Below, piece by piece: positions 750-39,155 of a stretch of 64,000 bases of DNA. The notes under the pieces are model-generated. The model saw only the letters and a list, made by a program, of their open reading frames with translations. It ran no database searches and was not told the origin of the DNA. The DNA comes from Pseudomonadota bacterium (GTDB lineage Bacteria > Campylobacterota > Campylobacteria > Campylobacterales > Sulfurimonadaceae): contig JAZDQA010000011.1 in NCBI GenBank assembly GCA_043797085.1, positions 64,001-128,000 on the forward strand, in the 5' to 3' direction. Position numbers and translations under genes: made by a program. The first letter of the stretch is position 1; every line of letters begins with the position of its first letter.

Positions 750-790
750 GGGTCAATAGTTCAGTGGTTAGAGCCCTCCGCTCATAACGG
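750..790 (+). pseudogene. 5' half of host tRNA(CAU), interrupted by the prophage (attL core CTCATAACGG 781-790)
   Basis: Acceptor 5' strand, D arm and anticodon loop are present, then tRNA sequence stops. Joins to 39121-39155 to give a 76-nt cloverleaf. Confidence 0.9.
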
Positions 791-850
791 CTTAATCTGA
801 ATTGATAGAACGCCTACAGACAGGGCGGTAAACGGTCTTTATTTTTTTAC

Positions 851-873
851 GGTGACGGCTTAGGTGACGGCTT
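851..873 (+). repeat. Paired GGTGACGGCTT direct repeats, putative integrase arm-type sites (left arm)
   Basis: Copies at 851-861 and 863-873; an identical pair lies at 38983-39005. Confidence 0.75.
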
Positions 874-885
874 CACTTCTTAAAT

Positions 886-961
886 GGGTCAATAGTTCAA
901 TGGTTAGAGCCCACCGCTCATAACGGTGTTGTTGCAGGTTCAAGTCCTGCTTGACCCACCA
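886..961 (+). tRNA. Prophage-encoded non-initiator tRNA with CAT anticodon (elongator Met or Ile2)
   Basis: 76-nt cloverleaf with GGGTCAA/TTGACCC acceptor, CACCG-CTCATAA-CGGTG anticodon arm, GCAGG-TTCAAGT-CCTGC T arm and encoded CCA. Paired G1-C72 argues against an initiator tRNA. Confidence 0.93.
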
Positions 962-972
962 TTTCTTCAAAA

Positions 973-1161
973 TCAAGCTGATTTATCAATACGATTTCTC
1001 TCTAAAAATTCTTCAATATCTGATATTTTATAAACAACAGCATTACCAAATTTTGAGTAAGATAGTTTTCGTTGGCTTCGATAGTTAGCCAGAGTACCTT
1101 TTGCAATACCGAATTTTTCCATAACTTGTTTATCTGTTATGTATTTGTCAAGCAATTCCAT
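973..1161 (-). CDS. Excisionase-like helix-turn-helix protein
   Basis: 62 aa with HTH-like pattern (VMEKFGIAKGTLANYR...YSKFGNAVVY); last gene of the leftward operon, next to attL. Confidence 0.7.
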   Translation of the reverse strand: MELLDKYITDKQVMEKFGIAKGTLANYRSQRKLSYSKFGNAVVYKISDIEEFLERNRIDKSA

Positions 1162-1345
1162 TTGCTCCCTCCTTCATAAATTTCGGAAGAAGTAAGCCCA
1201 TAAAGCAACTTCCTACCCCACCTTTTTTATATTTTGGCTTACTACCTGCTGAGCAACTCTTATCTCCGTTTACCCCTTTGATACATTCTGAACAGTCAAT
1301 ATTCCACTGTCCTCTTGTATCTTGTCCGCTGTATTTTGGTTTCAT
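1148..1345 (-). CDS. Hypothetical Cys-rich phage protein
   Basis: 65 aa with CxxC, AAGGAG RBS, overlaps the next gene. Confidence 0.55.
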   Translation of the reverse strand: MKPKYSGQDTRGQWNIDCSECIKGVNGDKSCSAGSKPKYKKGGVGSCFMGLLLPKFMKEGANGIA

Positions 1346-1409
1346 CCTGCTCTCCTTATTTTTTCAACAATTCTCTGCGCTTCCAATGTATCAAAGTAAT
1401 CATCAACAC

Positions 1410-8214: not shown

Positions 8215-8244
8215 ATTATAGACAACATTGTCAAGTAATGTCAA
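8215..8244 (-). promoter_or_regulatory. Leftward early promoter with overlapping operator repeats
   Basis: TTGACA (8244-8239), 18 bp, TATAAT (8220-8215) on minus; TGTCAA hexamers at 8229, 8239, 8252 and 8262. Confidence 0.7.
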
Positions 8245-8260
8245 GAGGAAGTGTCAAGTT

Positions 8261-8932
8261 ATGTCAACATGGTATGAAAGATTAAAAAAATTACGTGAAC
8301 AAAAGAGCCTTAGTCAGACTCAATTAGGTGAAAAAATAGGCAAAGACTTAACCGCAATAAGTAGGTATGAGAATGGAAGTGGAGCACAAAATCTTACTTA
8401 TAAATTAAAACAAAGTTTACGCTGGGTATTTACGCCTGAAGAAATAGAGTATATTGAGCATGGTGCTATAGTTGAACCTGATAATACGACTAATAATGGA
8501 GTGGTAAAAAATACAATATTAGTTCCCATTATATCTGCAAAGGCAAGTGGTTCACCGGTTGGTGAGATTCACTATGAGGTTGTGACAAAAGGGGAGCTAT
8601 CGATTGCAAGGATGCTATTTAGGACAATGCCAAACGTAGAAAATATACAAGCGATAGAGGTGATCGGGAATAGTATGTCCCCTCGAATTAATCCTGGGGA
8701 TTATGTCATTATCGATAAAGCCGATTCTTTTAATCAAGATGGGGTTTATGTGTTGCAGTTTGATAGTATGTTATTAGTGAAAAGATTGCAGGTAACGACA
8801 AAAGGGATTAAGATCATCAGCGATAACCGATCATACGATGATGACATGTATGATCCCGAAGATGATCAGCGTATGATGCATATCATCGGAAAAGTTATTT
8901 TAGTGATCAATAGAGATATGGCATCGTTCTGA
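8261..8932 (+). CDS. CI-like repressor (XRE HTH plus S24 peptidase)
   Basis: RLKKLRE..SLSQTQLGEKIG HTH; GNSMSP and LVKRL catalytic Ser/Lys motifs. Confidence 0.9.
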   Translation: MSTWYERLKKLREQKSLSQTQLGEKIGKDLTAISRYENGSGAQNLTYKLKQSLRWVFTPEEIEYIEHGAIVEPDNTTNNGVVKNTILVPIISAKASGSPVGEIHYEVVTKGELSIARMLFRTMPNVENIQAIEVIGNSMSPRINPGDYVIIDKADSFNQDGVYVLQFDSMLLVKRLQVTTKGIKIISDNRSYDDDMYDPEDDQRMMHIIGKVILVINRDMASF

Positions 8933-16304: not shown

Positions 16305-16313
16305 GAGAAATAA

Positions 16314-20246: not shown

Positions 20247-20256
20247 GGAGTAAGTA

Positions 20257-20882: not shown

Positions 20883-20884
20883 AA

Positions 20885-23448: not shown

Positions 23449-23449
23449 A

Positions 23450-24918: not shown

Positions 24919-24928
24919 GGAGAAACCA

Positions 24929-26074: not shown

Positions 26075-26084
26075 AGGGGAATGA

Positions 26085-27455: not shown

Positions 27456-27491
27456 CAGTGATGGATTGAGCGATAGCGAAAGGATCTAAGA

Positions 27492-27827
27492 ATGAACGGA
27501 AGATATCTCCTGCTGGAGAAAAAGATCAGAGACCTGAAAATGTATCTTGGGGTGATGCTTCGCAATTATCCACGGTACGAAAAATTCGCTATCGCGCATG
27601 AGATACAGTCGAACATCACCATGATGCAAAGAATGGTGATCGCAACGGGCAAAAAGTATTTTAAAAAGACGGATCTTCGCGATCTTGATATCGAGCATGA
27701 AATGCTCCGACAAAATATACTCATCTCGTATGAGATGAAGTACATCGATATGAGACGGTTCGAATATGTATCCGGTCTGATCGACGAAGTCGGAAGACTC
27801 ATCGGCGACTGGATATCAAAAATTTAG
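27492..27827 (+). CDS. avd: DGR accessory variability determinant (four-helix bundle)
   Basis: Basic 111-aa protein with YPRYEKF, LRDLDIE, EVGRLIGDW, between VR and TR. Confidence 0.88.
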   Translation: MNGRYLLLEKKIRDLKMYLGVMLRNYPRYEKFAIAHEIQSNITMMQRMVIATGKKYFKKTDLRDLDIEHEMLRQNILISYEMKYIDMRRFEYVSGLIDEVGRLIGDWISKI

Positions 27828-27848
27828 GTTGCACTTCTCTTGTGTGTT

Positions 27849-27959
27849 TTGCCGATCCGTGGCGGGAATTGGAACGATGGTGCGAATGCTGGGCTCGGTG
27901 CCTTGAATCTGAACAATGCTCGTTCGAACTCGAACAGCAACATCGGGTTCCGTCCAGAC
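27849..27959 (+). ncRNA. DGR template region TR
   Basis: Intergenic copy of VR with 24 adenines and nine AAY codons, between avd and RT. Confidence 0.93.
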
Positions 27960-28117
27960 TGTACGGCTGTTATTGAAGCTCATGGCGTATTCGCCTCGAG
28001 ATGAATGTTGTATAGGGTAGAAGTGCGACCTGTATCCTTAACCGGACGAAATAAATGCTTGAATAGCATAAGCCTTGAGCTGCGTGCTAACTGTAGGCCA
28101 TTACCAAAGAGGGAAAC

Positions 28118-29212
28118 GTGGGAAAAGTATTCGATCAAATCATAATGATGGAGAACGCCTTGGATGCTTTCAGACTGATTCGAAAAGGGCATTCAGAAGA
28201 TTATTCGATGCTCAAGTTCGAAAGCAACCTGATGGCCAATATCCAAACGATTGTCGGGAGCATAAAAGACGGGACCTACTCCGTAAAGGGGTATCGGATA
28301 CTCGTCGTGCGAGAACCGAAAGAGCGAAATATTTACGCACCTTATATTGAGGATCGATTAGTACAGCAGATGATCTACAGCGCCATCGAACCTTTTCTTG
28401 ACCGAAAGATGGACCATTATTCCGGTGCATGCAGGATTGGAAAAGGGGTTGAGTTTTCACGTAAAAGTACTCAGCGCATGATGCGTTATCGCGATTCAAT
28501 TTGGTATGTCAAGCTCGACATTGATAAGTTTTTTGCGTCTATCGATCACGATGTTCTCAAAAGCATACTTGCAAAGCATATCCGGGACAAAGCCGTGCTA
28601 GAACTGCTTGAGTGTTTTATCGGGAACGGTTTCGGGGACAAGGGGATACCGATCGGCAATCTGCTCAGTCAGCTCTTCGCCAACTTGTATCTCAATGAAC
28701 TCGATCAGTTTGTCCGGCACGATACTAAAGCCGTCCATTATGTTCGGTATATGGATGATTTTATCTGTTTTGCCAAAGATAAAGAATCTGCCCGTGAGTT
28801 AAAGATAGAAGCGATCCGCTTCGTTAATGAACAGCTGAAGCTGAACATTGATAACCGAAAGGTGAAACTTCAAAAGGTTAAACACGGGATCACGTTCCTG
28901 GGGTGCAAGATAAAGGCAAAAAAGATGTTTTTGTCCAAGACGAAAATCAAGAAGATCCGCCATCGGATCAAGCGGTACATTCAAAGCGGATGTTCCACCC
29001 CGATGCAGCATTCGTTCGCGAATATTGTTCCGGAGGATGATACGTTTGTTTTGGCAAAAATATTCCATGTCTACAATGAATTCGCAGGGCGCGGCGAAAA
29101 GCTCCTCATGCTTAAGGCATGCTCTAAAAAGTTCAATGTGTTCATGTCAGGTCAATACCTATTTATAGGTGGCGCAAAAAAGTTATCAAAAATTAAGGAG
29201 GTAACACTATGA
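28118..29212 (+). CDS. DGR reverse transcriptase
   Basis: EPKER.I, DRLVQ, KLDIDKFF, GIPIGNLLSQLFANLYL, YVRYMDD, FLG; GTG start. Confidence 0.95.
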   Translation: MGKVFDQIIMMENALDAFRLIRKGHSEDYSMLKFESNLMANIQTIVGSIKDGTYSVKGYRILVVREPKERNIYAPYIEDRLVQQMIYSAIEPFLDRKMDHYSGACRIGKGVEFSRKSTQRMMRYRDSIWYVKLDIDKFFASIDHDVLKSILAKHIRDKAVLELLECFIGNGFGDKGIPIGNLLSQLFANLYLNELDQFVRHDTKAVHYVRYMDDFICFAKDKESARELKIEAIRFVNEQLKLNIDNRKVKLQKVKHGITFLGCKIKAKKMFLSKTKIKKIRHRIKRYIQSGCSTPMQHSFANIVPEDDTFVLAKIFHVYNEFAGRGEKLLMLKACSKKFNVFMSGQYLFIGGAKKLSKIKEVTL

Positions 29213-30309
29213 GTTTAAATTTTGGAATTAACGGAAGCATCAGCGTCAATGCTGCGCGTCCGATAACAGTCGATTCGACAACCCCGATCGCTATCGTAGC
29301 GACAACGGATATTGTCAATCTTGGAATAAAGTTTTTCGGTAATGCTGAATTGGCACGTTTAGAGTATTCCGCTTCGACAGCCGGTACTCTTATCTCAGCA
29401 CTCGATGCGATCATTGCCCAGGGTGTTCGTTGTCCGATCATTCTTAATATGCTAGATGATTCAGCAACAGATATACAGGTGATAGCAGCGATTAATGCTC
29501 TATCGACCTCTGAAGCCATTACAGGATATCGACCTGATCTTATTATTGCTCCTGGGTTCTCTAGTTCTGCTGCGGTAGGTGCCGCGATGGATGCTATTGC
29601 ATCACGTCTATGGTGTACTGCTATCGTCGATGTGACTGCAACGACTGAGAGTTTAGCACTATCGTTTGCCGGTAACTTCGGAAGCCGTCACGTTCTCCTC
29701 GTTGGTCCCGAATCGATCAGCATTGGTGGGATCGGTATGGCACCATCGGCAGTCTATGCCGGTGTGATCGCGGCGATGGATGCTTCCAATCCATTTGGAT
29801 GGGCAGAGTCTGCATCAAACCGTATTGCCAAAGGGGTTAGCTCAACAACCCGCATCGTCGATTATGCGGACGGTCAGGATTCGGAAGCACGTCGTCTTCG
29901 TAATGCCGGTGTCGCATCAATCGTTCGTGATGTGGGCTGGCGTACTTTTGGTTTTGAGACCACCGACATCGATCCGATCTGGTCACCGCTGAATCGTGTA
30001 CGCTCGTTTTACAAAATGCTTCGCGGCATGATCTTAGCTTCAAAATGGGCGCGTGACCGTGGAGCTGATGAGCTTCTCATGGTTAAACAATCAGTCGAAG
30101 AGTTTATGCGCGGTTTGAAAGGTGCGGGTGTCGTTCTCGGATTCGAGGCGTATTTCGATACTGAAAAGAACACAAAAACAACCGTCACCAATGGACAGTT
30201 TTATTTGACAGTAGAGGTTCAGGATATGCCAACGATCCGTGAACTTAACATCGAGCTTGTCTATGTAGACAATTACAGTGACGTTCTTCTCAACGTCATT
30301 AACGGTTAA
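29209..30309 (+). CDS. Tail sheath protein
   Basis: P2 FI-like: LIIAPGF, GWAESASN, GWRTFG. Confidence 0.88.
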   Translation: MSLNFGINGSISVNAARPITVDSTTPIAIVATTDIVNLGIKFFGNAELARLEYSASTAGTLISALDAIIAQGVRCPIILNMLDDSATDIQVIAAINALSTSEAITGYRPDLIIAPGFSSSAAVGAAMDAIASRLWCTAIVDVTATTESLALSFAGNFGSRHVLLVGPESISIGGIGMAPSAVYAGVIAAMDASNPFGWAESASNRIAKGVSSTTRIVDYADGQDSEARRLRNAGVASIVRDVGWRTFGFETTDIDPIWSPLNRVRSFYKMLRGMILASKWARDRGADELLMVKQSVEEFMRGLKGAGVVLGFEAYFDTEKNTKTTVTNGQFYLTVEVQDMPTIRELNIELVYVDNYSDVLLNVING

Positions 30310-30319
30310 GGAGTAAACA

Positions 30320-30817
30320 ATGGCTAAATCACGTCAAATCTTTCGCGATATGAACATCCTCGTGGATGGTATCGGCAACGTTGGAGTCAGCAAATCATGC
30401 GAACTCCCAAAAATCGAGTATCTCACGATCGAACGTGACGGTGCGATGGCAATGGAGGAAGTGATCCCCCTCATCAAAGCGATGAGTGCGAAGATCGTCC
30501 TCAACGAATACAACCCATTGGCATTCGTTGCAGCCAGTAACCTATTTGGACTCGGAACGCTGATCATCATTAAAGGGTCTACAGTACAGGATGGTAAATC
30601 TATCCCAGTACTCGCAACCCTTGGTGGAAGCGTCAAGGTTATTGAGTCTCCAATTCCTGAGCGAGGCAAAGAAGTAGAGATGACACTTGAGATCGCAGTA
30701 ACTTCGTATGCGCTTGTAGTAAACAACATTCCGCAAGTTGCGATCGATGTCAAAAACATGGTGTGCGTCATCGGTGGCGTTGATTTGTATGCTGAGCTTC
30801 GCGCTCATATTTTGTAG
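30320..30817 (+). CDS. Tail tube protein (P2 FII-like)
   Basis: ELPKI and IDVKNMV..IGGVD; follows sheath. Confidence 0.85.
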   Translation: MAKSRQIFRDMNILVDGIGNVGVSKSCELPKIEYLTIERDGAMAMEEVIPLIKAMSAKIVLNEYNPLAFVAASNLFGLGTLIIIKGSTVQDGKSIPVLATLGGSVKVIESPIPERGKEVEMTLEIAVTSYALVVNNIPQVAIDVKNMVCVIGGVDLYAELRAHIL

Positions 30818-30827
30818 GGGGTAGACG

Positions 30828-31109
30828 ATGGCTGAAGAAAAAAAAGGATTGCCGGATTATGTTTCGGACGGTGCTGATGGAGCAAAAGTTGTCACTTTAA
30901 CGGATGCAACAAAAGTTACCATGCGTGAGCCTACAGTTAATGACATGATCGTTTCTGAGGATGAAAGCAAAGCGAAAAGCGAAGTTACACTCATCAGTAA
31001 TCTATGTATGTTAACTCCGGCTGATGTTCGGGCAATGAAGATTAAAAACTACACTCGCCTACAGGTGGTACTCGCGCATTTTTTGTACTCCCAAGACGAG
31101 AATGCATAA
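30828..31109 (+). CDS. Tail assembly chaperone (GpE-like)
   Basis: VTMREPTVND and LISNLC; between tube and tape measure. Confidence 0.8.
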   Translation: MAEEKKGLPDYVSDGADGAKVVTLTDATKVTMREPTVNDMIVSEDESKAKSEVTLISNLCMLTPADVRAMKIKNYTRLQVVLAHFLYSQDENA

Positions 31110-31240
31110 GCATAATGGCTTTAGTGGGGCACTGGCTTCATTTTAGCTACACCGACATGCTCGGTATGAAGGTTTCTATTTTATTGGATTTTTTTGATGA
31201 GGCGGTATCGCTCGCAGAAAGTTCAAAAGGGCAGCAATAA
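30828..31240 (+). CDS. -1 frameshift-extended tail chaperone (E+E')
   Basis: Slippery TTTTTTG at 31079-31085; -1 frame open to TAA 31238-31240, encoding MALVGHWLHFSYTDMLGM... Confidence 0.75.
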
Positions 31241-31397
31241 AACTGGAAACGATAACCGCTCCTCCGAAATAAGGAGATGCGCTATCGAATCCAAACGCAG
31301 ATACGATCAGGGAAATAAATACCCCGATAAAGACAATTCCTATGATGGACATGGCAAACGTTGACATGGCTTTGATAGTAATGATGAAATTTTCCAT
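31176..31397 (-). CDS. Small two-TM membrane moron, antisense to the tail operon
   Basis: 73 aa with two hydrophobic helices; TGCTATACT extended -10 ends 6 nt before the ATG. Confidence 0.55.
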   Translation of the reverse strand: MENFIITIKAMSTFAMSIIGIVFIGVFISLIVSAFGFDSASPYFGGAVIVSSFIAALLNFLRAIPPHQKNPIK

Positions 31398-31429
31398 AAA
31401 AAAAGTATAGCACAGACAAGGAAAACACA

Positions 31430-33691
31430 ATGGATAAGATGCTGGCACTCGGAATCGTATTAAGCGCAAAAGATATGTTCTCCCCAGTGCTATCAAAGCT
31501 CAATGGTGGGATCGGTGATGTTCTAAAAAAAACCGATGCAATGGCTTCCAAAAAAGTCGACTTGAATCAAAAGCTCGATAAAGCCACGCTCTCTGCATAT
31601 GGTTTGGATAGACAGATCAAAGAGATAGATGATGAGCTGAAAGTACTCAATGCCAAAAAAATAAAACTGGATGAGCAATTCAAGTCAGGGGAAATATCTG
31701 CCGAAAAGTTCGGTGCAGAACTCAGCAAGGTCGAACGTAAAAAATCACTACTTGATTCTAAAAAGATGCGATTATCAAGCGACCTGGATGCAACTACCCA
31801 AAGTGCTAAAAAACTTGAAGCCGAACTTAACAAAATAGATAAAGCCACACGCTTTGAAAAAATAGGGAAAGCACTTAAAGAAATCCCAAAAAATGCTACT
31901 CTAGCAGGTACTGCTTTAATAGGGGTAAGCGTTGCTTCACGTGGGGCTGCTGAAACCGTTATCAAATCATATGTTGATTTTGAAGATGAACAAACCCAGT
32001 TAAAAAATACACTCATGAAAAGTGATGGCACAGTAAGCCCATTTTTTAAATCAATTAGTAATGAGGCAACAAAACTTGGGAATGCATTGCCAGGGACTAC
32101 AGCTGACTTCTTCAAAATGGCATCGACGCTCAAATCGCTTGGAGTTGAAGAGAAGAGTATTGTAGGAGGTGCTCTTAAATCAGCAGCATACCTTGGAGCT
32201 GTTTTAAAAATACCATACGAAGAAGCTGCTACAGCTACGGCTAAATTTAAAGAAGCAATGGGGATAGCAGATAATGAACTACTCCCATTTATTGATGATA
32301 TTCAGCGTCTATCGCACATGGGTGTCCAAGTTGGAGAAATGAGTTTTGCATTCTCGAAGATCGGGGCAACGATGAAAGGTCTTGGCATGAGTGGGCTTAA
32401 AGCGGCTCGGGATGTTGAACCCCTAATCGGCATGTTGATCAAGGCAGGATTCTCAGGCGAGACGGTAGGTACAAACCTAGGAAACATTATGAAAGATGCT
32501 GTCTCATTTAAAGGTTCAAAAGACCTTGACGCAATGGGAATCAAACTAAATTTCAATGATGCAAACGGTAATTTTAAAGGTACCGAAAATATGATCAAGC
32601 AACTCGAGAAACTGAAAGCTATCAAAAGTGATGCTGCACGTTTAAGTGCTGTAGAGTCCATATTTGGAAAAGGTGAAGCCTCTACTATGGTCAACGTTCT
32701 AATCAATAAAGGTACATCAGGGCTTGTAGAGTTTAATAAGCAGATGAAAGTTCAGGCGGATATCAATCAACGTGCTGCTGAATCATCAAAAACATTAGGA
32801 TCGATGTGGGAGGCAATGACCGGAACCGTAACTAATTTGTTTGCGCTCATAGGTGGGAGTTTATCACCTGAGATGAAATCCCTTACCGAATGGTTTGGGA
32901 ACTCTGCCGCAGCTATCAGCAGCTTTGGGGAAAAACACCCCGTAATAACAAAATTTGTAGGAGGAGCAGTTGTAGGACTTACAATCGTTACTGGAGTGCT
33001 TGGTGCTGTAGGTATAGCAGTAGGAGCTCTTACGTTTGCCGTCGGAGCTTTAGGTATAACCAGTATGGCCACATTTGGAATTGTCCTCGGAGCAGCAGCT
33101 TTAATTGGTGGGGCTGCATTTTTGATAATTAGTAATTGGGAACCTATCAAGGGATGGTTTCAAGGTATATTTGAAAATATTAAGACAGCTGCTTCAACAT
33201 CTTGGGAGTATTTAAAAGGGATATTTTCATGGACACCACTAGGGATGGTTATAAATAACTGGACCCCAATAGTATCTACGTTTCAGGCAATTATAGGGGC
33301 AATATCAAAGCCGTTTACAGTTTTCTTTGATTGGATTGAATCGAAATTCAAGGCAGTATCAGAGACTGTAAATAGCGTTGGTTCATTTTTTGGGATGTCT
33401 ACCGGTCAAGCCCCTACTCCAAGAACCGTTAGGATCCCAGCAAACACAACTTCAACTCCAGCAAGTGCTAGAACAGCAGTAGAAAACCGAACAGACAATA
33501 TACAACAAAGGATAGCATCAGTTCCAACTAGATCTCAATCCATGAATAACAATGTAACGGTAAATATATCAAACCCTAGCTTTGCCAATGCAGCACAGGC
33601 TGTTGCTACTCAAAAACAGATCGATGAGCAGGTTCGCAAAGCCCTGGCAAAACAGAAAAATGATAAAGCAGATAGGGGGTATGCGTCATGA
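31430..33691 (+). CDS. Tail tape measure protein
   Basis: 753-aa Ala/Gly-rich helical protein with a TM region and NWEPIK repeats. Confidence 0.92.
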   Translation: MDKMLALGIVLSAKDMFSPVLSKLNGGIGDVLKKTDAMASKKVDLNQKLDKATLSAYGLDRQIKEIDDELKVLNAKKIKLDEQFKSGEISAEKFGAELSKVERKKSLLDSKKMRLSSDLDATTQSAKKLEAELNKIDKATRFEKIGKALKEIPKNATLAGTALIGVSVASRGAAETVIKSYVDFEDEQTQLKNTLMKSDGTVSPFFKSISNEATKLGNALPGTTADFFKMASTLKSLGVEEKSIVGGALKSAAYLGAVLKIPYEEAATATAKFKEAMGIADNELLPFIDDIQRLSHMGVQVGEMSFAFSKIGATMKGLGMSGLKAARDVEPLIGMLIKAGFSGETVGTNLGNIMKDAVSFKGSKDLDAMGIKLNFNDANGNFKGTENMIKQLEKLKAIKSDAARLSAVESIFGKGEASTMVNVLINKGTSGLVEFNKQMKVQADINQRAAESSKTLGSMWEAMTGTVTNLFALIGGSLSPEMKSLTEWFGNSAAAISSFGEKHPVITKFVGGAVVGLTIVTGVLGAVGIAVGALTFAVGALGITSMATFGIVLGAAALIGGAAFLIISNWEPIKGWFQGIFENIKTAASTSWEYLKGIFSWTPLGMVINNWTPIVSTFQAIIGAISKPFTVFFDWIESKFKAVSETVNSVGSFFGMSTGQAPTPRTVRIPANTTSTPASARTAVENRTDNIQQRIASVPTRSQSMNNNVTVNISNPSFANAAQAVATQKQIDEQVRKALAKQKNDKADRGYAS

Positions 33692-34071
33692 ACACTGTAA
33701 TGGCAATGATCTCAACGTTCGCGTTTGACTTATCAAGTAGAGACTTTAACCGGCTCGATCGTACACGAAGCTACAACTTTGCAGAAATACAAAAAGCTCA
33801 AGATCACCCAGGCCTACAGTCTATCGGAAAAGATATGGAAGAAATCACAATTAGTGGAAGTCTAACAACGCTTAGATCAGGAATAGATCCTCTCGATGAT
33901 CTCTACACGATAGCAGATCAAAAAGATCCGGTCCCATTTGTAATGGGGTACGGTGTCGTTGTAGGTGATTTCCTAATAACAAAGATCAGTGAGGGCAAAT
34001 CGATCTTCCTGGATGATGGTGTTCACATTCAAATGGAGTTCAGCATCGATCTCAAAAAGGTGTACCTATGA
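33688..34071 (+). CDS. P2 GpU-like tail protein
   Basis: LQSIG...ITISG, GYG...GDF.I, F..DG. Confidence 0.8.
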   Translation: MNTVMAMISTFAFDLSSRDFNRLDRTRSYNFAEIQKAQDHPGLQSIGKDMEEITISGSLTTLRSGIDPLDDLYTIADQKDPVPFVMGYGVVVGDFLITKISEGKSIFLDDGVHIQMEFSIDLKKVYL

Positions 34072-34268
34072 AATATGCTATAGCAACTCAGGGTGATCGT
34101 CTCGATCAAATCGTATATCAGTATTATAAAACGCTTGACGTACTAGGCGAGGTAATGATGAGCAACCCTGATCTGCTCAATAAGCCTATCCTCGATGAGG
34201 GTGATCGTGTAGCTCTCCCAGATATAGCTATCGAAGCTCAATCTGAAACTGGGGTGAGTTTATGGTAA
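34068..34268 (+). CDS. Tail protein X
   Basis: QGDRLDQI.Y.YY, NP.L and C-terminal LW. Confidence 0.85.
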   Translation: MKYAIATQGDRLDQIVYQYYKTLDVLGEVMMSNPDLLNKPILDEGDRVALPDIAIEAQSETGVSLW

Positions 34269-35206
34269 AGCATCCTGATTTTAAGATCATCGTAAACGAC
34301 AAAGACGTTACCGAAAGCCTGCGACCTTATTTAGTAAGTGTTGAATATACCGACGATATCGATGATGAAGCGGATGGGCTTACTTTGCGATTTCAGGGTG
34401 AGAATTTCAAGCCTCCATCGTTTAATGATTCGCTCAAGGTATGGCTTGGATACCGTGAAGGGCTTTGGTATATCGGTTCATTTTCCGTTTTAAAGTCACG
34501 TATCGAGTTTGAGACGTTGGAAGTAGAAGTCACTGCAACGCCTGTCAATTTTGGAAGCGACATAAAAGAGAAGCGGACCATGTCTTATGACAACGTAACG
34601 CTTGATCAGATTTTAAACAAGATAGCTAAACGGTACAAGCTGTCAGTAAAAAACAGCTTCCCAAAGCGTGCCTACAAACACAAAAGCCAAACCAATCAAA
34701 GCGACTTGGATTTCATGCAGCGGTTGGCGAAAGAGAGCGGTGCAACATTCGCCATCAAAAACAATACGATCATTTTTCGTCCTAAAAATGGGAGTGATGG
34801 TGACAAAGAGCTTCCCTCTGTTTCCATCGATGCAAAGCTGACAAAAGGGTTGTGGTTCGAAACCCTTGATAAAACAGCATACGGATCATGCGTCGCTTCA
34901 TGGCATAGCACGAAAGATAATAAAACCCAGAGCGTTACAGTCGGTAAAGGTAAACCAGTGCTGCACATCAAGAGCACATTCAAAGATGCAAGTGATGCCA
35001 GGATGAAAGCATTAGCCCGATTAGATGAGTCAAAACGCGGGGAAGCACGCGGTGGCTTTGAGGGTGAGGGGATGAATATTGTCGCTGGCTCAAAGGTTCA
35101 ATTATCCAATCTACCTCCTGGATGGCAGTCAGCGTTTGGTATCAAACAAGTACGTCATTCATGGGGAGATAGTGGATACACGGTAAACGTTGAGTTTGAA
35201 AGTTAG
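34262..35206 (+). CDS. GpD-like late control/baseplate hub protein
   Basis: VWLGY, QTNQSDLDFMQRLA, VRHS...GY. Confidence 0.85.
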   Translation: MVKHPDFKIIVNDKDVTESLRPYLVSVEYTDDIDDEADGLTLRFQGENFKPPSFNDSLKVWLGYREGLWYIGSFSVLKSRIEFETLEVEVTATPVNFGSDIKEKRTMSYDNVTLDQILNKIAKRYKLSVKNSFPKRAYKHKSQTNQSDLDFMQRLAKESGATFAIKNNTIIFRPKNGSDGDKELPSVSIDAKLTKGLWFETLDKTAYGSCVASWHSTKDNKTQSVTVGKGKPVLHIKSTFKDASDARMKALARLDESKRGEARGGFEGEGMNIVAGSKVQLSNLPPGWQSAFGIKQVRHSWGDSGYTVNVEFES

Positions 35207-35209
35207 GAG

Positions 35210-35497
35210 GTGTTGATGTCAAAAGATTACTGCTCATGGTTCCCGGAGAGAATATGTGGTACTGATATATCCAAGTGCTGTAAGAAGCACGACAATGACT
35301 GCGGCATGGCTGGATCATTTAATTTTGTGAAACATCAGATTGACTTCTATCGATGCCTAAGTTTAAAAGTATGTGTTTTATGGGCGGTATTGATCACCTC
35401 GGGAGGGACACTGTTTTGTCTCATAAAAAGCCCTTGGTTGATCTACAAAAAGATCAAATATCGAATCACTGTAGATCGTGATTCAGTTAGAAATTAA
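35210..35497 (+). CDS. Hypothetical Cys-rich protein with PLA2-like CCxxHD motif
   Basis: DYCSWFP...CCKKHD. Confidence 0.45.
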   Translation: MLMSKDYCSWFPERICGTDISKCCKKHDNDCGMAGSFNFVKHQIDFYRCLSLKVCVLWAVLITSGGTLFCLIKSPWLIYKKIKYRITVDRDSVRN

Positions 35498-35507
35498 AGG
35501 ATAAACA

Positions 35508-35804
35508 GTGAAAGCATTATTTCTTATGATACTGCTCAGTATAGCATGCATAGCTATTGAAGAGGACAAAGTAAAACACTTCGCAGGTTCTATGGCCATT
35601 GCAAGCGTAGGAAGTGGATTAGCTAAGCACTATGGATCAAGCCCAGTAGAAGCTTGGTTTATTGGGTTTGGTACATCTATTATCGTAGGTATCGCTAAAG
35701 AGCGTATAGACGGAAGTGGATATGGCAGTGAGGACATCCATGATGTCTACGCAGATACATTAGGTGCCTCCATAGGAGCAACCTTATTCTCATTGGAGTT
35801 CTGA
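35508..35804 (+). CDS. YfiM-like membrane protein
   Basis: DKVKHF, G.AKE..D and D.YAD.LG motifs. Confidence 0.55.
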   Translation: MKALFLMILLSIACIAIEEDKVKHFAGSMAIASVGSGLAKHYGSSPVEAWFIGFGTSIIVGIAKERIDGSGYGSEDIHDVYADTLGASIGATLFSLEF

Positions 35805-35805
35805 A

Positions 35806-36066
35806 ATGAAAAAAGTAATGTTGGTTGTAATGTTAATGATGATGGTAGTAATGAGTGGGTGTACTCCCGCAACGGTTGATTTTATGGAGTCAATGCAAGT
35901 TGATGGACAGCATCAGAAAGCCTTGGAATTCTTGGGTGATGATAAGGGTACACTTGTTTATAAGGCAACTCCTAAAGCTAAAGAGTGCCTACGAGCAAAG
36001 ATGGTCGAGCGTGGGTATTATCTTGTACAGGATGATATTGATTGTTTTGATAATGAGGTTCGGTGA
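35806..36066 (+). CDS. Putative lipoprotein
   Basis: Signal peptide ending MSGC. Confidence 0.6.
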   Translation: MKKVMLVVMLMMMVVMSGCTPATVDFMESMQVDGQHQKALEFLGDDKGTLVYKATPKAKECLRAKMVERGYYLVQDDIDCFDNEVR

Positions 36067-36353
36067 TGGACTGGCAATGGATAGCTAATGGCGCTTTTGT
36101 AATTTTAGGTATTGTGGGTACTGCACTTTATAACTCACTTAAAAATAATATGGATAACTCATTTAAATCAGTTAATGAAAGTATCCATGAAATAGAGCTT
36201 GATGCTTCAAAGTTGACAGAGAAAGTCCAAGCAGTTGAACTTTTAGTAGCTGGAAATTATGTGATGAAATCTGAATTTGAAGCAAAGATGGACGCAATGC
36301 TTAAAAAGCTTGACAAGATTTTTGACAAGCTGGATGGAAAGGCAGATAAATAA
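36063..36353 (+). CDS. Single-TM coiled-coil lysis-region protein
   Basis: N-terminal TM segment; C-terminal YV.K.EF...LDKI.DKLD.KADK. Confidence 0.55.
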   Translation: MMDWQWIANGAFVILGIVGTALYNSLKNNMDNSFKSVNESIHEIELDASKLTEKVQAVELLVAGNYVMKSEFEAKMDAMLKKLDKIFDKLDGKADK

Positions 36354-36523
36354 TGGAAGAATATAAAGGTATTAACCGCGATCAGTTCCCAGCTTGGCAG
36401 GGATGGAAGATTGTCGATGACTATAAAAGACTTGATGCAGATGCTTACGTCATAGTAAACCTTTGTGAAAACAATGGCCAGCTTCAGCAGCTGGTAGCTC
36501 AATTTTACGAAGGAGGTAAATAA
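36353..36523 (+). CDS. Small hypothetical protein (56 aa, absent from ORF track)
   Basis: MEEYKGINRDQFPAW...; TAATG overlaps at both ends. Confidence 0.55.
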   Translation: MEEYKGINRDQFPAWQGWKIVDDYKRLDADAYVIVNLCENNGQLQQLVAQFYEGGK

Positions 36524-37089
36524 TGGCACAGTTTGAAGTCGCACATGCAAGAACATCGTCAAATGAGGGAGGATATGCGAATAACATCAAAGACCGAGGT
36601 GGTGAAACCTTTCATGGAATTGCTCGAAAATACTGGCCAAAATGGACGGGGTGGGTACTAATCGATGCTCAAAGATCAAAATTTCCAAAAGAGATTCATA
36701 GCTCTAAAAACTGGAAACACGTTGACAAAATACTCAATGAGATACCACGCTTAAAAGAGCTTGTACGATCATTCTATAAAGCCAACTTTTGGGATGACAT
36801 CGAGGGAGATCGTATCAATTCTCAAGAAGTAGCCAATACTCTCTATGACTGGGCGGTAAACAGCGGCGAAGGTTCACCAGCAAAAGCGATTCAACGGATT
36901 ATCGGTGCGACAGCTGATGGTGATATCGGTCCTGCAACTGCCTTGAAGATTAATACTTATCCGGATCAGTTATCTTTACCAGGTATGTTGAGAGAAAAAC
37001 GGGTACAGCTTGTTAGAGATATTGTTAAAAATGATCCAAGCCAAATCGTGTTTTTGAAGAACTGGGTTGAAAGGGCAAAGTATGCTTAA
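36523..37089 (+). CDS. Endolysin, glycoside hydrolase 108 family
   Basis: EGGYAN..DRGGET..GI, D.AVNSG, DG.IGP.T, FLKNW..R. Confidence 0.9.
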   Translation: MAQFEVAHARTSSNEGGYANNIKDRGGETFHGIARKYWPKWTGWVLIDAQRSKFPKEIHSSKNWKHVDKILNEIPRLKELVRSFYKANFWDDIEGDRINSQEVANTLYDWAVNSGEGSPAKAIQRIIGATADGDIGPATALKINTYPDQLSLPGMLREKRVQLVRDIVKNDPSQIVFLKNWVERAKYA

Positions 37090-37327
37090 AAATACCATGT
37101 ACGAAATATTTTCACCGGATGGTAAATTATCATCTTCACGCATAGGATTTTTTATTGCATTGATAGCTGTCATCATTTTTGCCGGCTATGATACATGGAT
37201 CAATAAGCGTCTTGATATTGGTTTAGCTGGGTTAATACTTACAGCTGGAACAACTGGATACGGTATCCATAGGACTACTGAAAAAGGTGAAAAAACAGAA
37301 ATAACACCATCGGGAGGCGGGCAATGA
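37082..37327 (+). CDS. Putative holin
   Basis: Two TM segments and DGKLSSSR; adjacent to endolysin. Confidence 0.6.
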   Translation: MLKNTMYEIFSPDGKLSSSRIGFFIALIAVIIFAGYDTWINKRLDIGLAGLILTAGTTGYGIHRTTEKGEKTEITPSGGGQ

Positions 37328-37689
37328 CTGCTTTATTCTTAAAAGAGTTTTGGCGTGAAATTATCATAGTTATTATGGGTATTACTTTATTCTCAGTATG
37401 GTCCATCTATTCTAATCGTGTTGAGGAACGCGATAATACTATCACGAAAATGACTGTCGAGGCAAAACTTGGAGAGATCCAACAGGATGCATTACGTAAA
37501 GCAATTATAGATCAAAGTGATGCCGTAGAAAAACAGCGCATCGATGCTGAAAAACGTGCTGCTAAATTTAAAGCGGAATCAAAGCGGATCTGGTTGGACT
37601 TTGAGCGTACTAAATTAGACGTGCAAAATCTATCCGGGGATGCAGAGTGTGAAGCTATGCGTAATATTGTAAGGGAGGCAGTGCAATGA
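37324..37689 (+). CDS. Putative i-spanin (Rz-like)
   Basis: N-terminal TM, coiled coil and C-terminal Cys. Confidence 0.6.
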   Translation: MTALFLKEFWREIIIVIMGITLFSVWSIYSNRVEERDNTITKMTVEAKLGEIQQDALRKAIIDQSDAVEKQRIDAEKRAAKFKAESKRIWLDFERTKLDVQNLSGDAECEAMRNIVREAVQ

Positions 37690-37910
37690 AGATTATAATT
37701 TTGTTGCCGACATTGATGTCGGTCGCACTTTTAACTGGGTGTGTTGGGAAAACTGTATATGTAGATCGTATCGTTGAAGTGAAAGTTCCAGTGCCGTGCA
37801 AGATGAAGGAAGTTAAGCCGGCCATACCAGGTGCGAATGATGCGGTGACGACAGCTGATATTGTGAGAGAACGGGATGAGTTGAGAAAATCTAATAATGG
37901 GTGTCAGTAA
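37686..37910 (+). CDS. Putative o-spanin lipoprotein
   Basis: LTGC lipobox; VEVKVPVPC; terminal Cys. Confidence 0.65.
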   Translation: MKIIILLPTLMSVALLTGCVGKTVYVDRIVEVKVPVPCKMKEVKPAIPGANDAVTTADIVRERDELRKSNNGCQ

Positions 37911-38969
37911 TCACTTACTGATATCATCCATCATATTAGAGGCTATCCTTGAGCCTTTCATGTAATTCATCGTTAGATACTTATTGATCGTTGTAGCATC
38001 ATTGTGACCTAGAGCACCGCTCATATGTATCGCATCAACTCCATTCTCAGCCATTGCTGAAACCATAATATTTCTAAGGTAATGTAGTGAGAACCAATCC
38101 CCTATGCTTTTTCTAATCATCAAAACTTGTTTATACCCACCGGTGATCTTTCCACCTGTTCTAGGAGATGTGAATACATATCCTTTTTTAGGCATGAACT
38201 CCATAAGGGCGATTTTAACATTAGGCGGTAAGAATATCTTTTGCTCTTCCCCATTCTTAGTATCCCTGAGAATGTACATGTCATGTGCTAGATCTACATC
38301 TTCAACTCTTAGGTTTATTATTTCTCCTCTACGACGTCCTTGAATTGCTAGAAGGAAAAATGCTCTAAAAAACGGGTCTTTTTCGTATCGCTCCATGATA
38401 TGATTATAAGCAATTTTCAACCGCTCAGAAGCATTTGCTACAATCTTCTTAGTCTTTGTATATTTAATCTTAACATCTTCACATGGGTTATGATACATGA
38501 TCCTATTTGCCCTGGCTATACGAAATGCAGGTGATAGTATCTCGATCGCCTGCTTAGCTGTACGTGCAGCATATCCACTTTTTATGAGGGCATCAACCAG
38601 GGACTGAATATGATCCGGCATAATTGATGATATTTTCTTATTTCCAAGTTTTGTTTTAACGTTACGATCATAGAATGATTTACGATCACGTTTGTACTCA
38701 CCCTCATCAAGTGTCGATAAATATTTATCAACCATATAATTAACGGTGGCATCTGAGCTTATTCCCTGCTCAACTTTTTCCTTGATAGATAGGAATTCTT
38801 TTTTGGCAACCATTAAACGATCGCGTTTTGATAGGTCCTTATTGGATAGATCTATGATCCCTCGATGCTGTTTTTTTTCAAACTCAAATCGATACCAAAA
38901 ACGATCATAGCTATCATTGGCTTTTAGGTTTTGCATTACAAGATTATTGAACTGTTCTTTAGGTGGCAT
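37911..38969 (-). CDS. int: Prophage tyrosine integrase
   Basis: GRRRGEI, TKNG, HYLR, LGH and KY catalytic motifs; adjacent to attR. Confidence 0.93.
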   Translation of the reverse strand: MPPKEQFNNLVMQNLKANDSYDRFWYRFEFEKKQHRGIIDLSNKDLSKRDRLMVAKKEFLSIKEKVEQGISSDATVNYMVDKYLSTLDEGEYKRDRKSFYDRNVKTKLGNKKISSIMPDHIQSLVDALIKSGYAARTAKQAIEILSPAFRIARANRIMYHNPCEDVKIKYTKTKKIVANASERLKIAYNHIMERYEKDPFFRAFFLLAIQGRRRGEIINLRVEDVDLAHDMYILRDTKNGEEQKIFLPPNVKIALMEFMPKKGYVFTSPRTGGKITGGYKQVLMIRKSIGDWFSLHYLRNIMVSAMAENGVDAIHMSGALGHNDATTINKYLTMNYMKGSRIASNMMDDISK

Positions 38970-38982
38970 ATTGTATCTTTCG

Positions 38983-39005
38983 GGTGACGGCTTTGGTGAC
39001 GGCTT
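38983..39005 (+). repeat. Paired GGTGACGGCTT direct repeats, putative arm-type sites (right arm)
   Basis: Copies at 38983-38993 and 38995-39005, same sequence as the left pair. Confidence 0.75.
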
Positions 39006-39110
39006 TCGAATGAATGATACTATAATTTTAGTGAATATGGGTGAAAGTAGGCAAGGTTTTAAGGGCGTGTGGTGAGGGATAGTGAGGAATGATTATGGAA
39101 GATAAAGCGA

Positions 39111-39155
39111 CTCATAACGGAGTTGTCGCAGGTTCAAATCCTGCTTGACCCACCA
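39111..39155 (+). pseudogene. 3' half of tRNA(CAU) at attR
   Basis: CTCATAACGGAG...GCAGGTTCAAATCCTGCTTGACCCACCA; CGGAG pairs with CTCCG of the 5' half at 776-780. Confidence 0.9.

What the first reader, a model, noticed from the sequence alone, without database searches (positions are those of the whole stretch)
750..39155. Prophage breaks a host tRNA at the anticodon loop and supplies a full replacement with compensatory changes
Seen: 750-790 joined to 39121-39155 gives a 76-nt tRNA(CAU), but neither att junction restores it because the shared core is only 10 bp. An intact copy sits 95 bp inside attL (886-961) in the same orientation, downstream of the host -10. It differs at only 5 positions: G15/C48 to A15/U48 (tertiary Levitt pair), U28/A42 to A28/U42 (anticodon stem) and position 59. 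Four of the five changes are therefore compensatory, supporting function. Established: most tRNA-targeting elements restore the gene through duplicated sequence in attP. Inference: the lysogen depends on the phage tRNA if the gene is single copy, and the 28/42 swap beside the crossover may stop the phage copy acting as attB.
Basis: partly seen in the sequence, partly recalled or inferred. Interest (0 to 1): 0.82.

Follow-up and report, generated by a model that had tools for sequence, protein, structure and literature searches.

The report
Prophage splits tRNA, carries replacement copy
A tailed prophage in a groundwater sulfur bacterium (Sulfuricurvum) has cut the host's only copy of an essential isoleucine-type tRNA gene in two and carries its own working copy beside the cut, a trick published in 2024 for phages of actinobacteria and seen here in a distant bacterial group and also on non-phage islands.

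Summary
Bases 750-790 and 39121-39155 join into a 76-nt tRNA(CAU) identical to the intact gene of related species. The two junctions share only the 10-bp core CTCATAACGG. An intact copy that differs at 5 positions lies at 886-961. The insert (791-39110) is a myovirus-like prophage with a tyrosine integrase, paired arm-type repeats and a diversity-generating retroelement (DGR).

No other copy of this tRNA is in the assembly. It is probably tRNA-Ile2, the lysidine-modified tRNA that reads AUA. A public metagenome contig carries the predicted attP junction, with base 39110 joined to base 781.

The same layout occurs in 7 of 66 species genomes of the genus, in 5 metagenome or viral contigs and, unintegrated, in one viral contig. 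It occurs on phages and on small non-phage islands.

One integrase clade shows three designs: a long core without a tRNA, a long core with a tRNA, and a short core with a tRNA.

This is "tRNA-dependent lysogeny" (Guerrero-Bustamante and Hatfull 2024). That paper already covers tRNA-Ile2-CAT targets, so this is a new member of a known kind. Earlier notes of this scan report the same design on other DNA.

Expression, dependence and the proposed shielding role of the 28:42 swap remain untested. A conserved motif at 811-839 is unexplained.

The parts
20..715 (+). Host left flank: 3' part of an FtsW/RodA-family gene
   Evidence: Pfam PF01098, E 2e-59. The same gene precedes the tRNA in relatives.
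728..733 (+). TATAAT, the -10-like hexamer of the host tRNA promoter, 16 nt before the tRNA 5' end
   Evidence: Read. Present in 11 of 11 related loci printed. The consensus scan that requires a -35 hexamer did not list it. Promoter function is inferred.
750..790 (+). Host tRNA(CAU) 5' part, positions 1-41 (attL side)
   Evidence: Identical to the 5' part of the intact genes of relatives.
781..790 (+). Common core CTCATAACGG at attL (anticodon loop plus 3 bp of stem)
   Evidence: The attP contig of run X2 crosses here.
791..885 (+). P' arm of attP between the core and the element tRNA
811..839 (+). Conserved motif (candidate small pseudoknot or protein site) found only in short-core elements
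   Evidence: Alignment A3 of 12 loci. 96.3% of cells are paired and 4 pairs have changes on both sides. One copy in the genome. Function unknown.
851..873 (+). Two arm-type repeats GGTGACGGCTT (P' arm)
   Evidence: Repeat D10.
886..961 (+). Element-borne complete tRNA(CAU), probably tRNA-Ile2; A15:U48, A28:U42, G59
   Evidence: ARAGORN. Rfam 65.8 bits. Covariation. Isotype evidence.
973..1161 (-). Small HTH_17 protein, candidate excisionase (directionality factor)
   Evidence: Pfam PF12728, E 5e-9. The role is inferred from family and position.
8228..8932 (+). CI/LexA-like repressor (HTH_3 plus Peptidase_S24)
14445..37089 (+). Virion and lysis genes: gpA-type large terminase, lambda-type portal, capsid, P2-type baseplate, sheath, tube and tape measure, GH108 endolysin
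   Evidence: Pfam hits.
26394..29212 (+). DGR inside the tail-fibre region: target gene with VR (variable repeat) 27332-27444, bAvd, TR (template repeat) 27848-27960, reverse transcriptase
   Evidence: (D2). 11 of 11 TR/VR mismatches lie at TR adenines.
37911..38969 (-). Tyrosine integrase of the prophage
   Evidence: Pfam PF00589 and PF22022. 93% identical to the integrase of the G074 element and 44-45% to those of the neighbouring island and of G015/G061.
38983..39005 (+). Two arm-type repeats GGTGACGGCTT (P arm)
   Evidence: Repeat D10.
39111..39155 (+). Host-type tRNA 3' part, positions 32-76 (attR; core 39111-39120)
   Evidence: (D8).
39156..64000 (.). Tandem classical genomic island (defence island). 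It runs on to about window-equivalent 64976 and ends with a second identical 3' part at 64977-65021, outside the window. Its integrase starts at 63713 (minus strand) and is cut by the window end.
   Evidence: Arm repeats GGGTACCG.. at 39226-39248 and near the far end.

Best explanation
This is tRNA-dependent lysogeny in a Sulfuricurvum genome.

A temperate myovirus-like phage (791-39110) integrated through its tyrosine integrase. The crossover lies within a 9-10 bp core in the anticodon loop of the host's single tRNA(CAU) gene, which is probably tRNA-Ile2, the lysidine tRNA that reads AUA.

The phage attP lacks the 3' part of the tRNA that classical elements carry. The host gene therefore stays split, as a 5' part at attL and a 3' part at attR.

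The phage carries a complete, diverged copy of the same tRNA 95 bp from the core. The copy lies just beyond the P' arm-type sites and points the same way as the broken gene. This copy takes over decoding, so the lysogen should need it.

Shown here: the split, the short core, the intact co-oriented copy kept by compensatory changes, the lack of any other copy, the attP junction, and recurrence in other hosts and elements.

Inferred: expression of the copy, its Ile2 identity, and dependence of the lysogen on it. For expression I put about even odds on read-through from the host TATAAT at 728-733 and on a promoter of the element's own.

Likely benefit (inferred): a full copy frees the element from having to match host base pairs that span the crossover. 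Identical element tRNAs sit in hosts whose own gene differs at 28:42 or at acceptor pairs 6:67 and 7:66. In those hosts a classical 3' part would give a mismatched chimaera.
For: **Split and core.**

**Join equals the intact gene.** 6 of 11 relatives carry exactly the join; 3 more are intact with 2-4 substitutions.

**Element copy.** ARAGORN and Rfam at 65.8 bits.

**Covariation.** 20 host and element tRNAs, 14 distinct. 100% of 308 cells are paired and 9 of 22 pairs change on both sides; 0 of 500 shuffles reach this.

**The element copy is not host DNA.**
- In G007 and G020 the host 5' part has acceptor GGGTCTT, while the adjacent full copy has GGGTCAA with its matching 3' strand.
- The same 76 nt at 100% identity occur in G000, G007, G049 and G053.

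**Single copy.**
- The genome has 4 CAU tRNAs: 2 initiator-like, 1 other, and the element copy.
- blastn finds no further copy.
- In 7 of 7 split genomes of the genus the element copy is the only full-length match.
- The 2-contig relative G042 has one copy.

**Need for the tRNA.** TilS is found above its cut-off. ATA makes up 11.7 per 1000 codons and occurs in 970 of 1032 long ORFs.

**Isotype.**
- The best E. coli match is annotated tRNA-Ile and has a CAT anticodon.
- The next-best matches in the order are tRNA-Ile(GAU) genes.
- The window tRNA shares 59-61 of 77 bases with tRNA-Ile(GAU), against 49-50 for the other CAU tRNA.

**attP.**
- A 514-nt contig of DNA run X2 covers 781-851 without a difference and is preceded by the letters of 39081-39110.
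- An unintegrated attP of the same design lies inside a 30-kb viral contig.

**Integrase and arms.**

**Transcription path.** No terminator-like site lies between 728 and 886.

**Precedent.** PMC10865867; abstract and sections 5, 6, 10 and 11 read.
Against: - There are no expression data. The RNA-library contig that spans 761-1746 cannot prove transcription or strand.
- Dependence is not tested.
- The assembly is a 14-contig draft, 95.9% complete, and lacks the rRNA operons: no tRNA-Ile(GAU) or tRNA-Ala is in the ARAGORN list. An unassembled second copy therefore cannot be excluded.
- The isotype rests on similarity and elimination, not on an isotype model. ARAGORN calls the gene Met by its anticodon.
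- The attP contig comes from a metagenome and may belong to a near-identical phage rather than to this very prophage.
- G061 shows that the element tRNA can ride along where the host gene is restored. The tRNA is therefore not always needed.
- In this phage no -10-like hexamer sits just upstream of the tRNA, so its expression in the free phage is unexplained.
Confidence: 0.85

Rival explanations
1. Classical integration. On this reading 886-961 is the regenerated host gene (host 5' part plus phage 3' part), bounded by the imperfect 45-nt repeats 917-961 and 39111-39155, and 750-790 is a relic of an older event.
For: The repeats 917-961 and 39111-39155 are 93% alike (D8). That is the usual signature of an element integrated in a tRNA gene.
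Against: - The covarying pairs tie 750-790 to 39121-39155 and tie the two halves of 886-961 to each other.
- The join equals the intact gene of 6 relatives.
- The attP contig joins 39110 to 781, not to 917.
- In G007 and G020 the full copy has an acceptor stem unlike the host's.
- The unintegrated viral contig carries the full tRNA beside attP.
Confidence: 0.02
2. The split is real, but the element tRNA is an accessory gene (for codon supply, or to counter a tRNA-cutting defence). The cell survives on another copy of the host tRNA that the draft assembly lacks.
For: The assembly lacks the rRNA operons and some tRNAs. In G061 the element tRNA coexists with a restored host gene. The mBio Discussion mentions counter-defence as a possible role of phage tRNAs.
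Against: - No second copy is found in any of the 7 split genomes.
- There is one copy in the near-closed relative G042, and one intact copy in G041.
- The element copy always has the same anticodon, always points the same way, and always lies 74-118 nt after the break (12 of 12).
Confidence: 0.08
3. The element copy is an elongator tRNA-Met, not tRNA-Ile2. The design is the same, but the disrupted function is Met decoding.
For: ARAGORN labels it Met by its anticodon. No isotype-specific model could be run.
Against: - The best E. coli relative is the CAT-anticodon tRNA annotated Ile.
- It is closer to tRNA-Ile(GAU) than the other CAU tRNA of the genome is.
- One search confirmed that the multi-copy matches are tRNA-Ile(GAU).
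- TilS needs a substrate tRNA.
Confidence: 0.1

Closest known systems
tRNA-dependent lysogeny of actinobacteriophages (Guerrero-Bustamante and Hatfull, mBio 2024, PMC10865867): Fionnbharth, the Cluster L phages and Gaia, and above all the Gordonia phages OneUp and Mollymur at tRNA-Ile2-CAT
   Same: - A tyrosine integrase with arm-type sites.
- An attB inside a single-copy host tRNA.
- A common core of 8-17 bp (here 10; 9-10 for OneUp and Mollymur), so no junction rebuilds the tRNA.
- A phage tRNA of the same isotype.
- Close relatives with a long core that rebuild the tRNA and carry none.
(Their Table 2 and sections 5, 6, 10.)
   Different: - The host is a Campylobacterota bacterium and the phage a myovirus-like prophage with a DGR.
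- The copy lies 74-118 nt from the core in 12 of 12 loci and is co-oriented with the broken gene behind the host -10. In Fionnbharth the tRNA overlaps gene 37 elsewhere in the genome and has its own shown promoter.
- The copy is 93% identical to the tRNA of the host genus. Fionnbharth's is not close to its host's.
- Non-phage islands use the same design.
- A form with a long core plus a tRNA exists (G061); no row of their Table 2 combines both.
- Nothing here is tested at the bench.
[quoted passage not shown]
   Same: A bioinformatic case in a Gram-negative bacterium: the att site lies in the middle of the tRNA, the host gene is disrupted, and a tRNA with the same anticodon is in the prophage.
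   Different: Two strains only. Their replacement tRNA is at most 80.6% identical to the host's and is closer to those of other genera. Here the copy is closest to the host genus: no match above 88% outside the genus among 201 sampled genomes of the order.
Lj965 prophage of Lactobacillus johnsonii, as cited in the Discussion of PMC10865867; primary papers not seen
   Same: It is reported not to rebuild the tRNA at a junction and to encode a cognate tRNA.
   Different: A Firmicute siphovirus. I could not check any details.
Classical tRNA-integrating islands and prophages (Islander-type; PMC4383910, abstract seen in the listing)
   Same: The same integrase family and the same anticodon-loop site. 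The neighbouring island at 39156 onward, and the viral contig L066, are of this classical kind.
   Different: Classical elements carry the 45-nt 3' part next to the core and regenerate the gene. This prophage does not.

Membership tests
tRNA-dependent lysogeny | A tyrosine integrase recombines attP with an attB that overlaps a host tRNA gene | tested here: met
   Integrase at 37911-38969 with PF00589. Paired arm repeats on both sides of the core. The break lies in the anticodon loop. An attP junction contig exists.
tRNA-dependent lysogeny | A short common core (about 10 bp), so no functional tRNA is rebuilt at attL or attR | tested here: met
   10 bp are shared (781-790 / 39111-39120). ARAGORN finds no tRNA at either junction.
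tRNA-dependent lysogeny | [quoted passage not shown] | tested here: met
   886-961 has the same anticodon, 71 of 76 bases identical to the host gene, and all stems kept.
tRNA-dependent lysogeny | The disrupted host tRNA is single copy and essential | tested here: inconclusive
   No other copy is in the draft assembly or in 7 of 7 split genomes. TilS is present and AUA is common. The assembly is incomplete and essentiality is inferred.
tRNA-dependent lysogeny | The phage tRNA is required for viable lysogens (clear plaques or no integrants without it) | not testable with these tools
   This needs genetics in a cultivable host.
Classical tRNA-restoring integrative element | The element carries the displaced part of the tRNA next to the core, so the target is regenerated | tested here: not met
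   After the core the prophage sequence is unrelated to the tRNA. The feature is met by the neighbouring island, which has identical 45-nt repeats.
tRNA-Ile2 (CAU, lysidine) | A CAU anticodon with isoleucine-type body and identity elements; a substrate of TilS | tested here: inconclusive
   The best E. coli match is the CAT-anticodon tRNA annotated Ile. The window tRNA shares 59-61 of 77 bases with tRNA-Ile(GAU), against 49-50 for the other CAU tRNA. TilS is present. No isotype model was available.

The most novel reading that the evidence does not exclude
The short core, the conserved motif at 811-839 and the diverged tRNA-Ile2 copy form a portable cassette. This cassette has moved among at least three integrase lineages, and between phages and non-phage defence islands, in Sulfuricurvum. 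It would do three things beyond replacing the tRNA:

1. It frees the element from host-specific base pairs that span the crossover, and so widens the range of species it can enter.
2. It closes a heavily used integration hot spot. The host attB is destroyed, and the copy left behind has a flipped 28:42 pair, with differences spaced so that no run of identity exceeds 17 nt. That would make the copy a poor substrate for the integrases and for homologous recombination.
3. It puts the copy under the captured host tRNA promoter. The motif would act as an RNA element in that precursor.
Probability: 0.2. Interest if true: 0.65.

Novelty: new member of a known kind. Interest (0 to 1): 0.45.

Why it matters
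The authors of the 2024 mBio paper on tRNA-dependent lysogeny left open how common the phenomenon is outside actinobacteriophages and how it evolved. These loci bear on both questions.

- **Reach.** The design occurs in Campylobacterota, in about one in ten species genomes of one genus. It occurs on a tailed phage and on small islands without virion genes.
- **Evolution.** One integrase clade (68-93% identity) holds all three states side by side: a long core without a tRNA, a long core with a tRNA, and a short core with a tRNA. This fits, but does not prove, the order "tRNA gained first, restoring segment lost later".
- **Benefit.** Identical element tRNAs sit in hosts whose own tRNA has incompatible stem pairs. 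This gives a concrete reason for the design.
- **Annotation.** Tools that define islands by a regenerated tRNA plus a displaced fragment will misplace the left end of such elements.

Tried and rejected
- **Isolated phages.** tblastn of the integrase against 50,697 phage records gave only distant hits at 30% identity or less. No cultured relative is known.
- **Exact-pattern scans for the element tRNA.** Viral, metagenome and genome collections returned only integrated forms. The unintegrated attP came later, through the motif scan.
- **Integrase-profile scan of viral contigs.** It gave 2 loci: one integrated copy of this phage and one classical long-core attP.
- **Empty site.** tblastx of the host flank right of the island (contig C11, 129022-131500) against the 11 relatives' loci found nothing. 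I have no relative with both flanks contiguous.
- **Other CAU tRNA.** The E. coli search with the genome's other CAU tRNA gave no clear isotype.
- **Promoter scan.** The consensus scan lists no + strand promoter before either tRNA. It requires a -35 hexamer, which I recall is weak in this phylum.
- **Precursor fold.** Folding 743-965 is not more stable than shuffles (z = -0.92).
- **RNA evidence.** Run X1 holds contigs over attL and attR, but contigs cannot show transcription.
- **Joint 790 to 886 in run X2.** Most likely a related element with a 74-nt spacer, not a deletion.
- **Spacing of the five differences.** They are more even than chance (p about 0.02-0.035), but the test was chosen after seeing the data.
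- **Origin of the element tRNA outside the genus.** Not supported among the 201 genomes of the order that were sampled.
- **Earlier notes of this scan.** Nothing at this place.
- **Literature.** The search for 'genomic island', 'tRNA gene', 'not restored' and 'island-encoded tRNA' (three of the four required) found no paper. The 12 papers holding both 'Sulfuricurvum' and 'prophage' (11 listed) were seen as a listing only.


Full report
**1. What is in the sequence**

Bases 750-790 are positions 1-41 of a tRNA. Bases 39111-39155 are positions 32-76, with the encoded CCA.

The two places share only CTCATAACGG (781-790 and 39111-39120). That is the seven-base anticodon loop plus three stem bases; the flanking bases differ.

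The join of 750-790 with 39121-39155 is letter for letter the intact tRNA(CAU) found behind the same FtsW-family gene in 6 of 11 related genomes. Three more are intact with 2-4 substitutions, and two are split like the window.

ARAGORN finds one tRNA in the whole window, at 886-961. Rfam scores it 65.8 bits. It lies 95 bp after the core on the same strand and differs from the host gene at positions 15, 28, 42, 48 and 59.

**2. The insert is a prophage, and a second element sits beside it**

Between the two tRNA parts lie the following:
- a small HTH_17 protein (973-1161, minus strand), a candidate excisionase;
- ParB-like and ParA-like genes;
- a CI/LexA-type repressor and a DnaB-like helicase;
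- a gpA-type terminase, a lambda-type portal and a capsid gene;
- P2-type baseplate, sheath, tube, tape-measure, gpU, gpX and gpD genes;
- a GH108 endolysin;
- a tyrosine integrase (37911-38969, minus strand).

Two copies of GGTGACGGCTT stand at 851-873 and again at 38983-39005, on either side of the core once the ends are joined. That is where arm-type integrase sites are expected.

To the right of attR a different element begins. It carries a CBASS-type cyclase with a patatin effector, a type I restriction system, an SNF2 helicase with a 1526-residue partner, and an Abi-like gene. It ends, about 1 kb beyond the window, with its own integrase, GGGTACCG-type arm repeats and a second, identical 45-nt tRNA 3' part. 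That island is of the classical, gene-restoring kind. The tRNA is therefore a shared hot spot, and the prophage is the element nearest the 5' part.

**3. Which tRNA, and is it the only copy**

The genome is a 14-contig draft of 2.40 Mb. Relatives found by an exact-pattern scan are titled Sulfuricurvum sp..

ARAGORN finds four CAU tRNAs: two that look like initiators, one other, and the element copy. The initiator call rests on a 1:72 mismatch and three G:C pairs in the anticodon stem, criteria that I recall. blastn finds no further copy, only the three fragments.

Four lines point to tRNA-Ile2:
- The best full-length E. coli match (74% identity) is a gene annotated tRNA-Ile that has a CAT anticodon.
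- Outside the genus, the multi-copy matches in the order are tRNA-Ile(GAU) genes. All four that I checked are; two of them are followed by tRNA-Ala.
- The host and element tRNAs share 59-61 of 77 bases with those Ile genes, against 49-50 for the genome's other CAU tRNA.
- TilS is present above its curated cut-off.

A weaker hint is an antisense match to the Rfam plastid ycf2 leader family (46.6 bits, below its threshold). I recall that this family lies opposite plastid trnI-CAU.

ATA makes up 11.7 per 1000 codons and occurs in 970 of 1032 long ORFs.

The isotype is thus probable but not proven. Either way the split gene is a single-copy elongator tRNA. The caveat is that the draft lacks its rRNA operons, since no tRNA-Ile(GAU) or tRNA-Ala is listed. 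Against a hidden copy, the 2-contig relative G042 has exactly one copy.

**4. The element copy is kept functional**

I aligned 5 distinct element tRNAs and 15 host tRNAs of the genus (14 distinct sequences). Every one of 308 cells in the cloverleaf plus the 15:48 tertiary pair is a standard pair. Nine of 22 pairs change on both sides. No shuffle of 500 and no slid register comes near this.

All 15 host genes have G15:C48 and all 5 element genes have A15:U48. Pair 28:42 takes four forms. Position 59 also varies among hosts, so it is not diagnostic.

**5. The predicted attP exists**

I laid four public runs on 200-1800.
- DNA run X2 holds a 514-nt contig that covers 781-851 without a difference. 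It is preceded by the thirty letters of 39081-39110. That is the P arm joined to the core and the P' arm.
- X2 and X4 also hold the uninterrupted host form: 749-790 followed by the letters of 39121-39139. Depth is high and may come from other strains.
- RNA-library run X1 holds a contig over 761-1746 and a contig of attR. Contigs cannot prove transcription.

Independently, a 30-kb viral contig carries the following contiguously in its interior: an integrase start, two arm repeats, about 100 nt, the core with no tRNA 5' part before it, the conserved motif, two arm repeats, and a full tRNA(CAU).

**6. How widespread, and on what**

In a scan of all 66 species genomes held for the genus, 61 had a match.
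- Seven show the split plus an adjacent full copy (G000, G007, G015, G020, G049, G053, G074). In each, that copy is the only full-length match.
- Two more end a contig right after an orphan 5' part (G055, G079).
- One (G061) has an intact host gene and an element copy.

Five further integrated examples come from viral and metagenome contigs. Together these give 12 distinct attL configurations, with spacers of 74-118 nt.

The elements differ in kind:
- about 38 kb of phage here, and about 35 and 41 kb between the tRNA parts in G074 and G015 (gene content not examined);
- an 11.5-kb island in G053 with a CI-like repressor and an AAA_25 ATPase but no virion gene;
- a 19-kb island in G061 with a type I restriction system and a KAP NTPase.

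The integrases form one family. This phage's integrase is 93% identical to that of G074, 65% to G053, and 44-45% to the clade of G015, G061 and the window's own island.

Within that clade the window's island has a long core and no tRNA. G061 has a long core and a tRNA. G015 has a short core and a tRNA. G015 and G061 are 93% identical in integrase and nearly identical in the P arm. An unintegrated classical attP of the family also exists in a viral contig.

**7. How it most likely works**

- *Integration.* It follows the lambda scheme, with the crossover inside the anticodon loop. This is shown by the junctions.
- *Replacement.* The host gene is destroyed and the element's copy replaces it. This is inferred from copy number.
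- *Expression.* The copy always points the same way as the broken gene and lies downstream of the host TATAAT, with no terminator-like site between them. Read-through from the host promoter is therefore plausible. In 4 of 12 loci (G007, G049, G053, L035) a TATTAT lies 14 nt before the copy, as in the host gene. In the other 8, this phage included, arm repeats occupy that place. In G053 the arm repeats lie after the tRNA, so the tRNA is inside attP.
- *Why carry a whole gene.* The crossover separates partners of base pairs that vary among host species: 6:67, 7:66, 27:43 and 28:42. A classical 3' part would make a mismatched chimaera in a host of another type. The same element tRNA, 100% identical, sits in hosts with U28, with C28, and with the alternative acceptor stem.
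The element pair differs from the host pair in 12 of 12 split loci and in G061. None of 19 orphan 3' parts or 9 orphan 5' parts in the genus is of the element type. These are few independent lineages, and the G020 element has the common host pair. The five differences are also spaced so that no identical run exceeds 17 nt (p about 0.02-0.035, post hoc).

**8. Comparison with what is known**

Guerrero-Bustamante and Hatfull (mBio 2024, PMC10865867; abstract and sections 5, 6, 10, 11 read) defined tRNA-dependent lysogeny by these features and proved the dependence genetically. Their Table 2 lists cores of 8-17 bp. It includes two Gordonia phages at tRNA-Ile2-CAT with cores of 9 and 10 bp. They note that close relatives rebuild the tRNA and carry none, and that the order of events is unclear.

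A Sinorhizobium study reports two prophages that inactivate tRNA-Leu(UAG) and bring a replacement (PMC11476347; passages read). A later paper by the same group found no such case in phiLM21-like prophages (PMC12429752; passages read).

The search for the phrase 'tRNA-dependent lysogeny' found 23 papers (22 listed). By title and abstract start, none concerns Campylobacterota. Of the 12 papers holding both 'Sulfuricurvum' and 'prophage' (11 listed), none has a title pointing to this. I read only the listings.

Four of the five defining features are met or consistent here, and the genetic one cannot be tested. The finding is a new member of a known kind.

Earlier notes of this scan describe the same design on other DNA: islands at tRNA-Leu, a mobilizable element at tRNA-Ile(GAU), a Gordonia phage, and a prophage of a CPR (candidate phyla radiation) bacterium. 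I did not check those notes.

**9. Unexplained**

All 12 short-core loci, and the unintegrated viral attP, carry a conserved block about 21 nt after the core (811-839 here). The long-core forms lack it.

It can be drawn as two interleaved short helices. In that drawing 96.3% of cells are paired and 4 pairs change on both sides. Many U-G pairs would fit only an RNA of the + strand. I derived the drawing from these same sequences, so the counts lean towards it.

By position it could equally be a protein-binding site like the bending site of the lambda P' arm; that comparison is recalled. It occurs once in the genome.

**10. Limits**

- There is no experiment and no strand-specific RNA evidence.
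- There is no isotype model.
- The assembly is a draft.
- The attP evidence comes from a metagenome contig.
- Supplementary files of the papers were not opened.

Noticed in passing
window 26394-29212: A DGR in the tail-fibre region. It comprises a target gene with an FGE-sulfatase/lectin-like domain, bAvd and a reverse transcriptase. VR is 27332-27444 and TR 27848-27960. All 11 mismatches are at TR adenines.
   Followed up: partly
window 39156-64000 and on to about 65021 (contig C11 to 129021): A tandem classical island at the same tRNA. It carries a CBASS-like pair (SMODS/AGS-C cyclase 55562-56893, patatin 56895-57839), type I restriction genes (51522-54509, 60799-63611), an SNF2 helicase plus a 1526-aa protein with no Pfam match (43128-50580), an Abi_2-like gene and a YgjP-like peptidase. 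Its integrase is cut by the window end.
   Followed up: partly
window 811-839; alignment A3: A conserved 29-nt block between the core and the arm sites of every short-core element. It is absent from long-core relatives. It is either a candidate small pseudoknot with covariation or a protein site. Function unknown.
   Followed up: partly
L016 (G061:C17:133100-152900), 209-467 and 19549-19593: An island that both restores the host tRNA through a 45-nt repeat and carries a full element-type tRNA after its arm sites. Its integrase is 93% identical to that of the short-core element of G015. It is a possible evolutionary intermediate.
   Followed up: partly
window 3459-4848, minus strand: The prophage encodes a ParB-like protein (N-terminal and HTH domains) and a ParA/MinD-like ATPase. 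These are partition genes more usual on plasmids and phage-plasmids.
   Followed up: no
L028 (G041:C2:80200-80700): A degenerate element-type tRNA copy (positions 5-76, several stem-breaking changes) on a separate 118-kb contig of another species. It is possibly a decayed cassette.
   Followed up: no
run X3, record 14 (17.5-kb contig): An element-like tRNA (4 differences and 1 inserted base) in an unrelated context with no 5' part upstream. It could be another element or a host lineage that was not sampled.
   Followed up: no
window 886-959, minus strand: A sub-threshold Rfam match to the plastid ycf2 leader family (46.6 bits; gathering score 65.7). It most likely reflects likeness of the tRNA to plastid trnI-CAU on the opposite strand. 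The gene order in plastids is recalled.
   Followed up: no
window 42448-43038: A short (196-aa) integrase-family ORF inside the defence island, apart from the island's full-length integrase at its right end.
   Followed up: no
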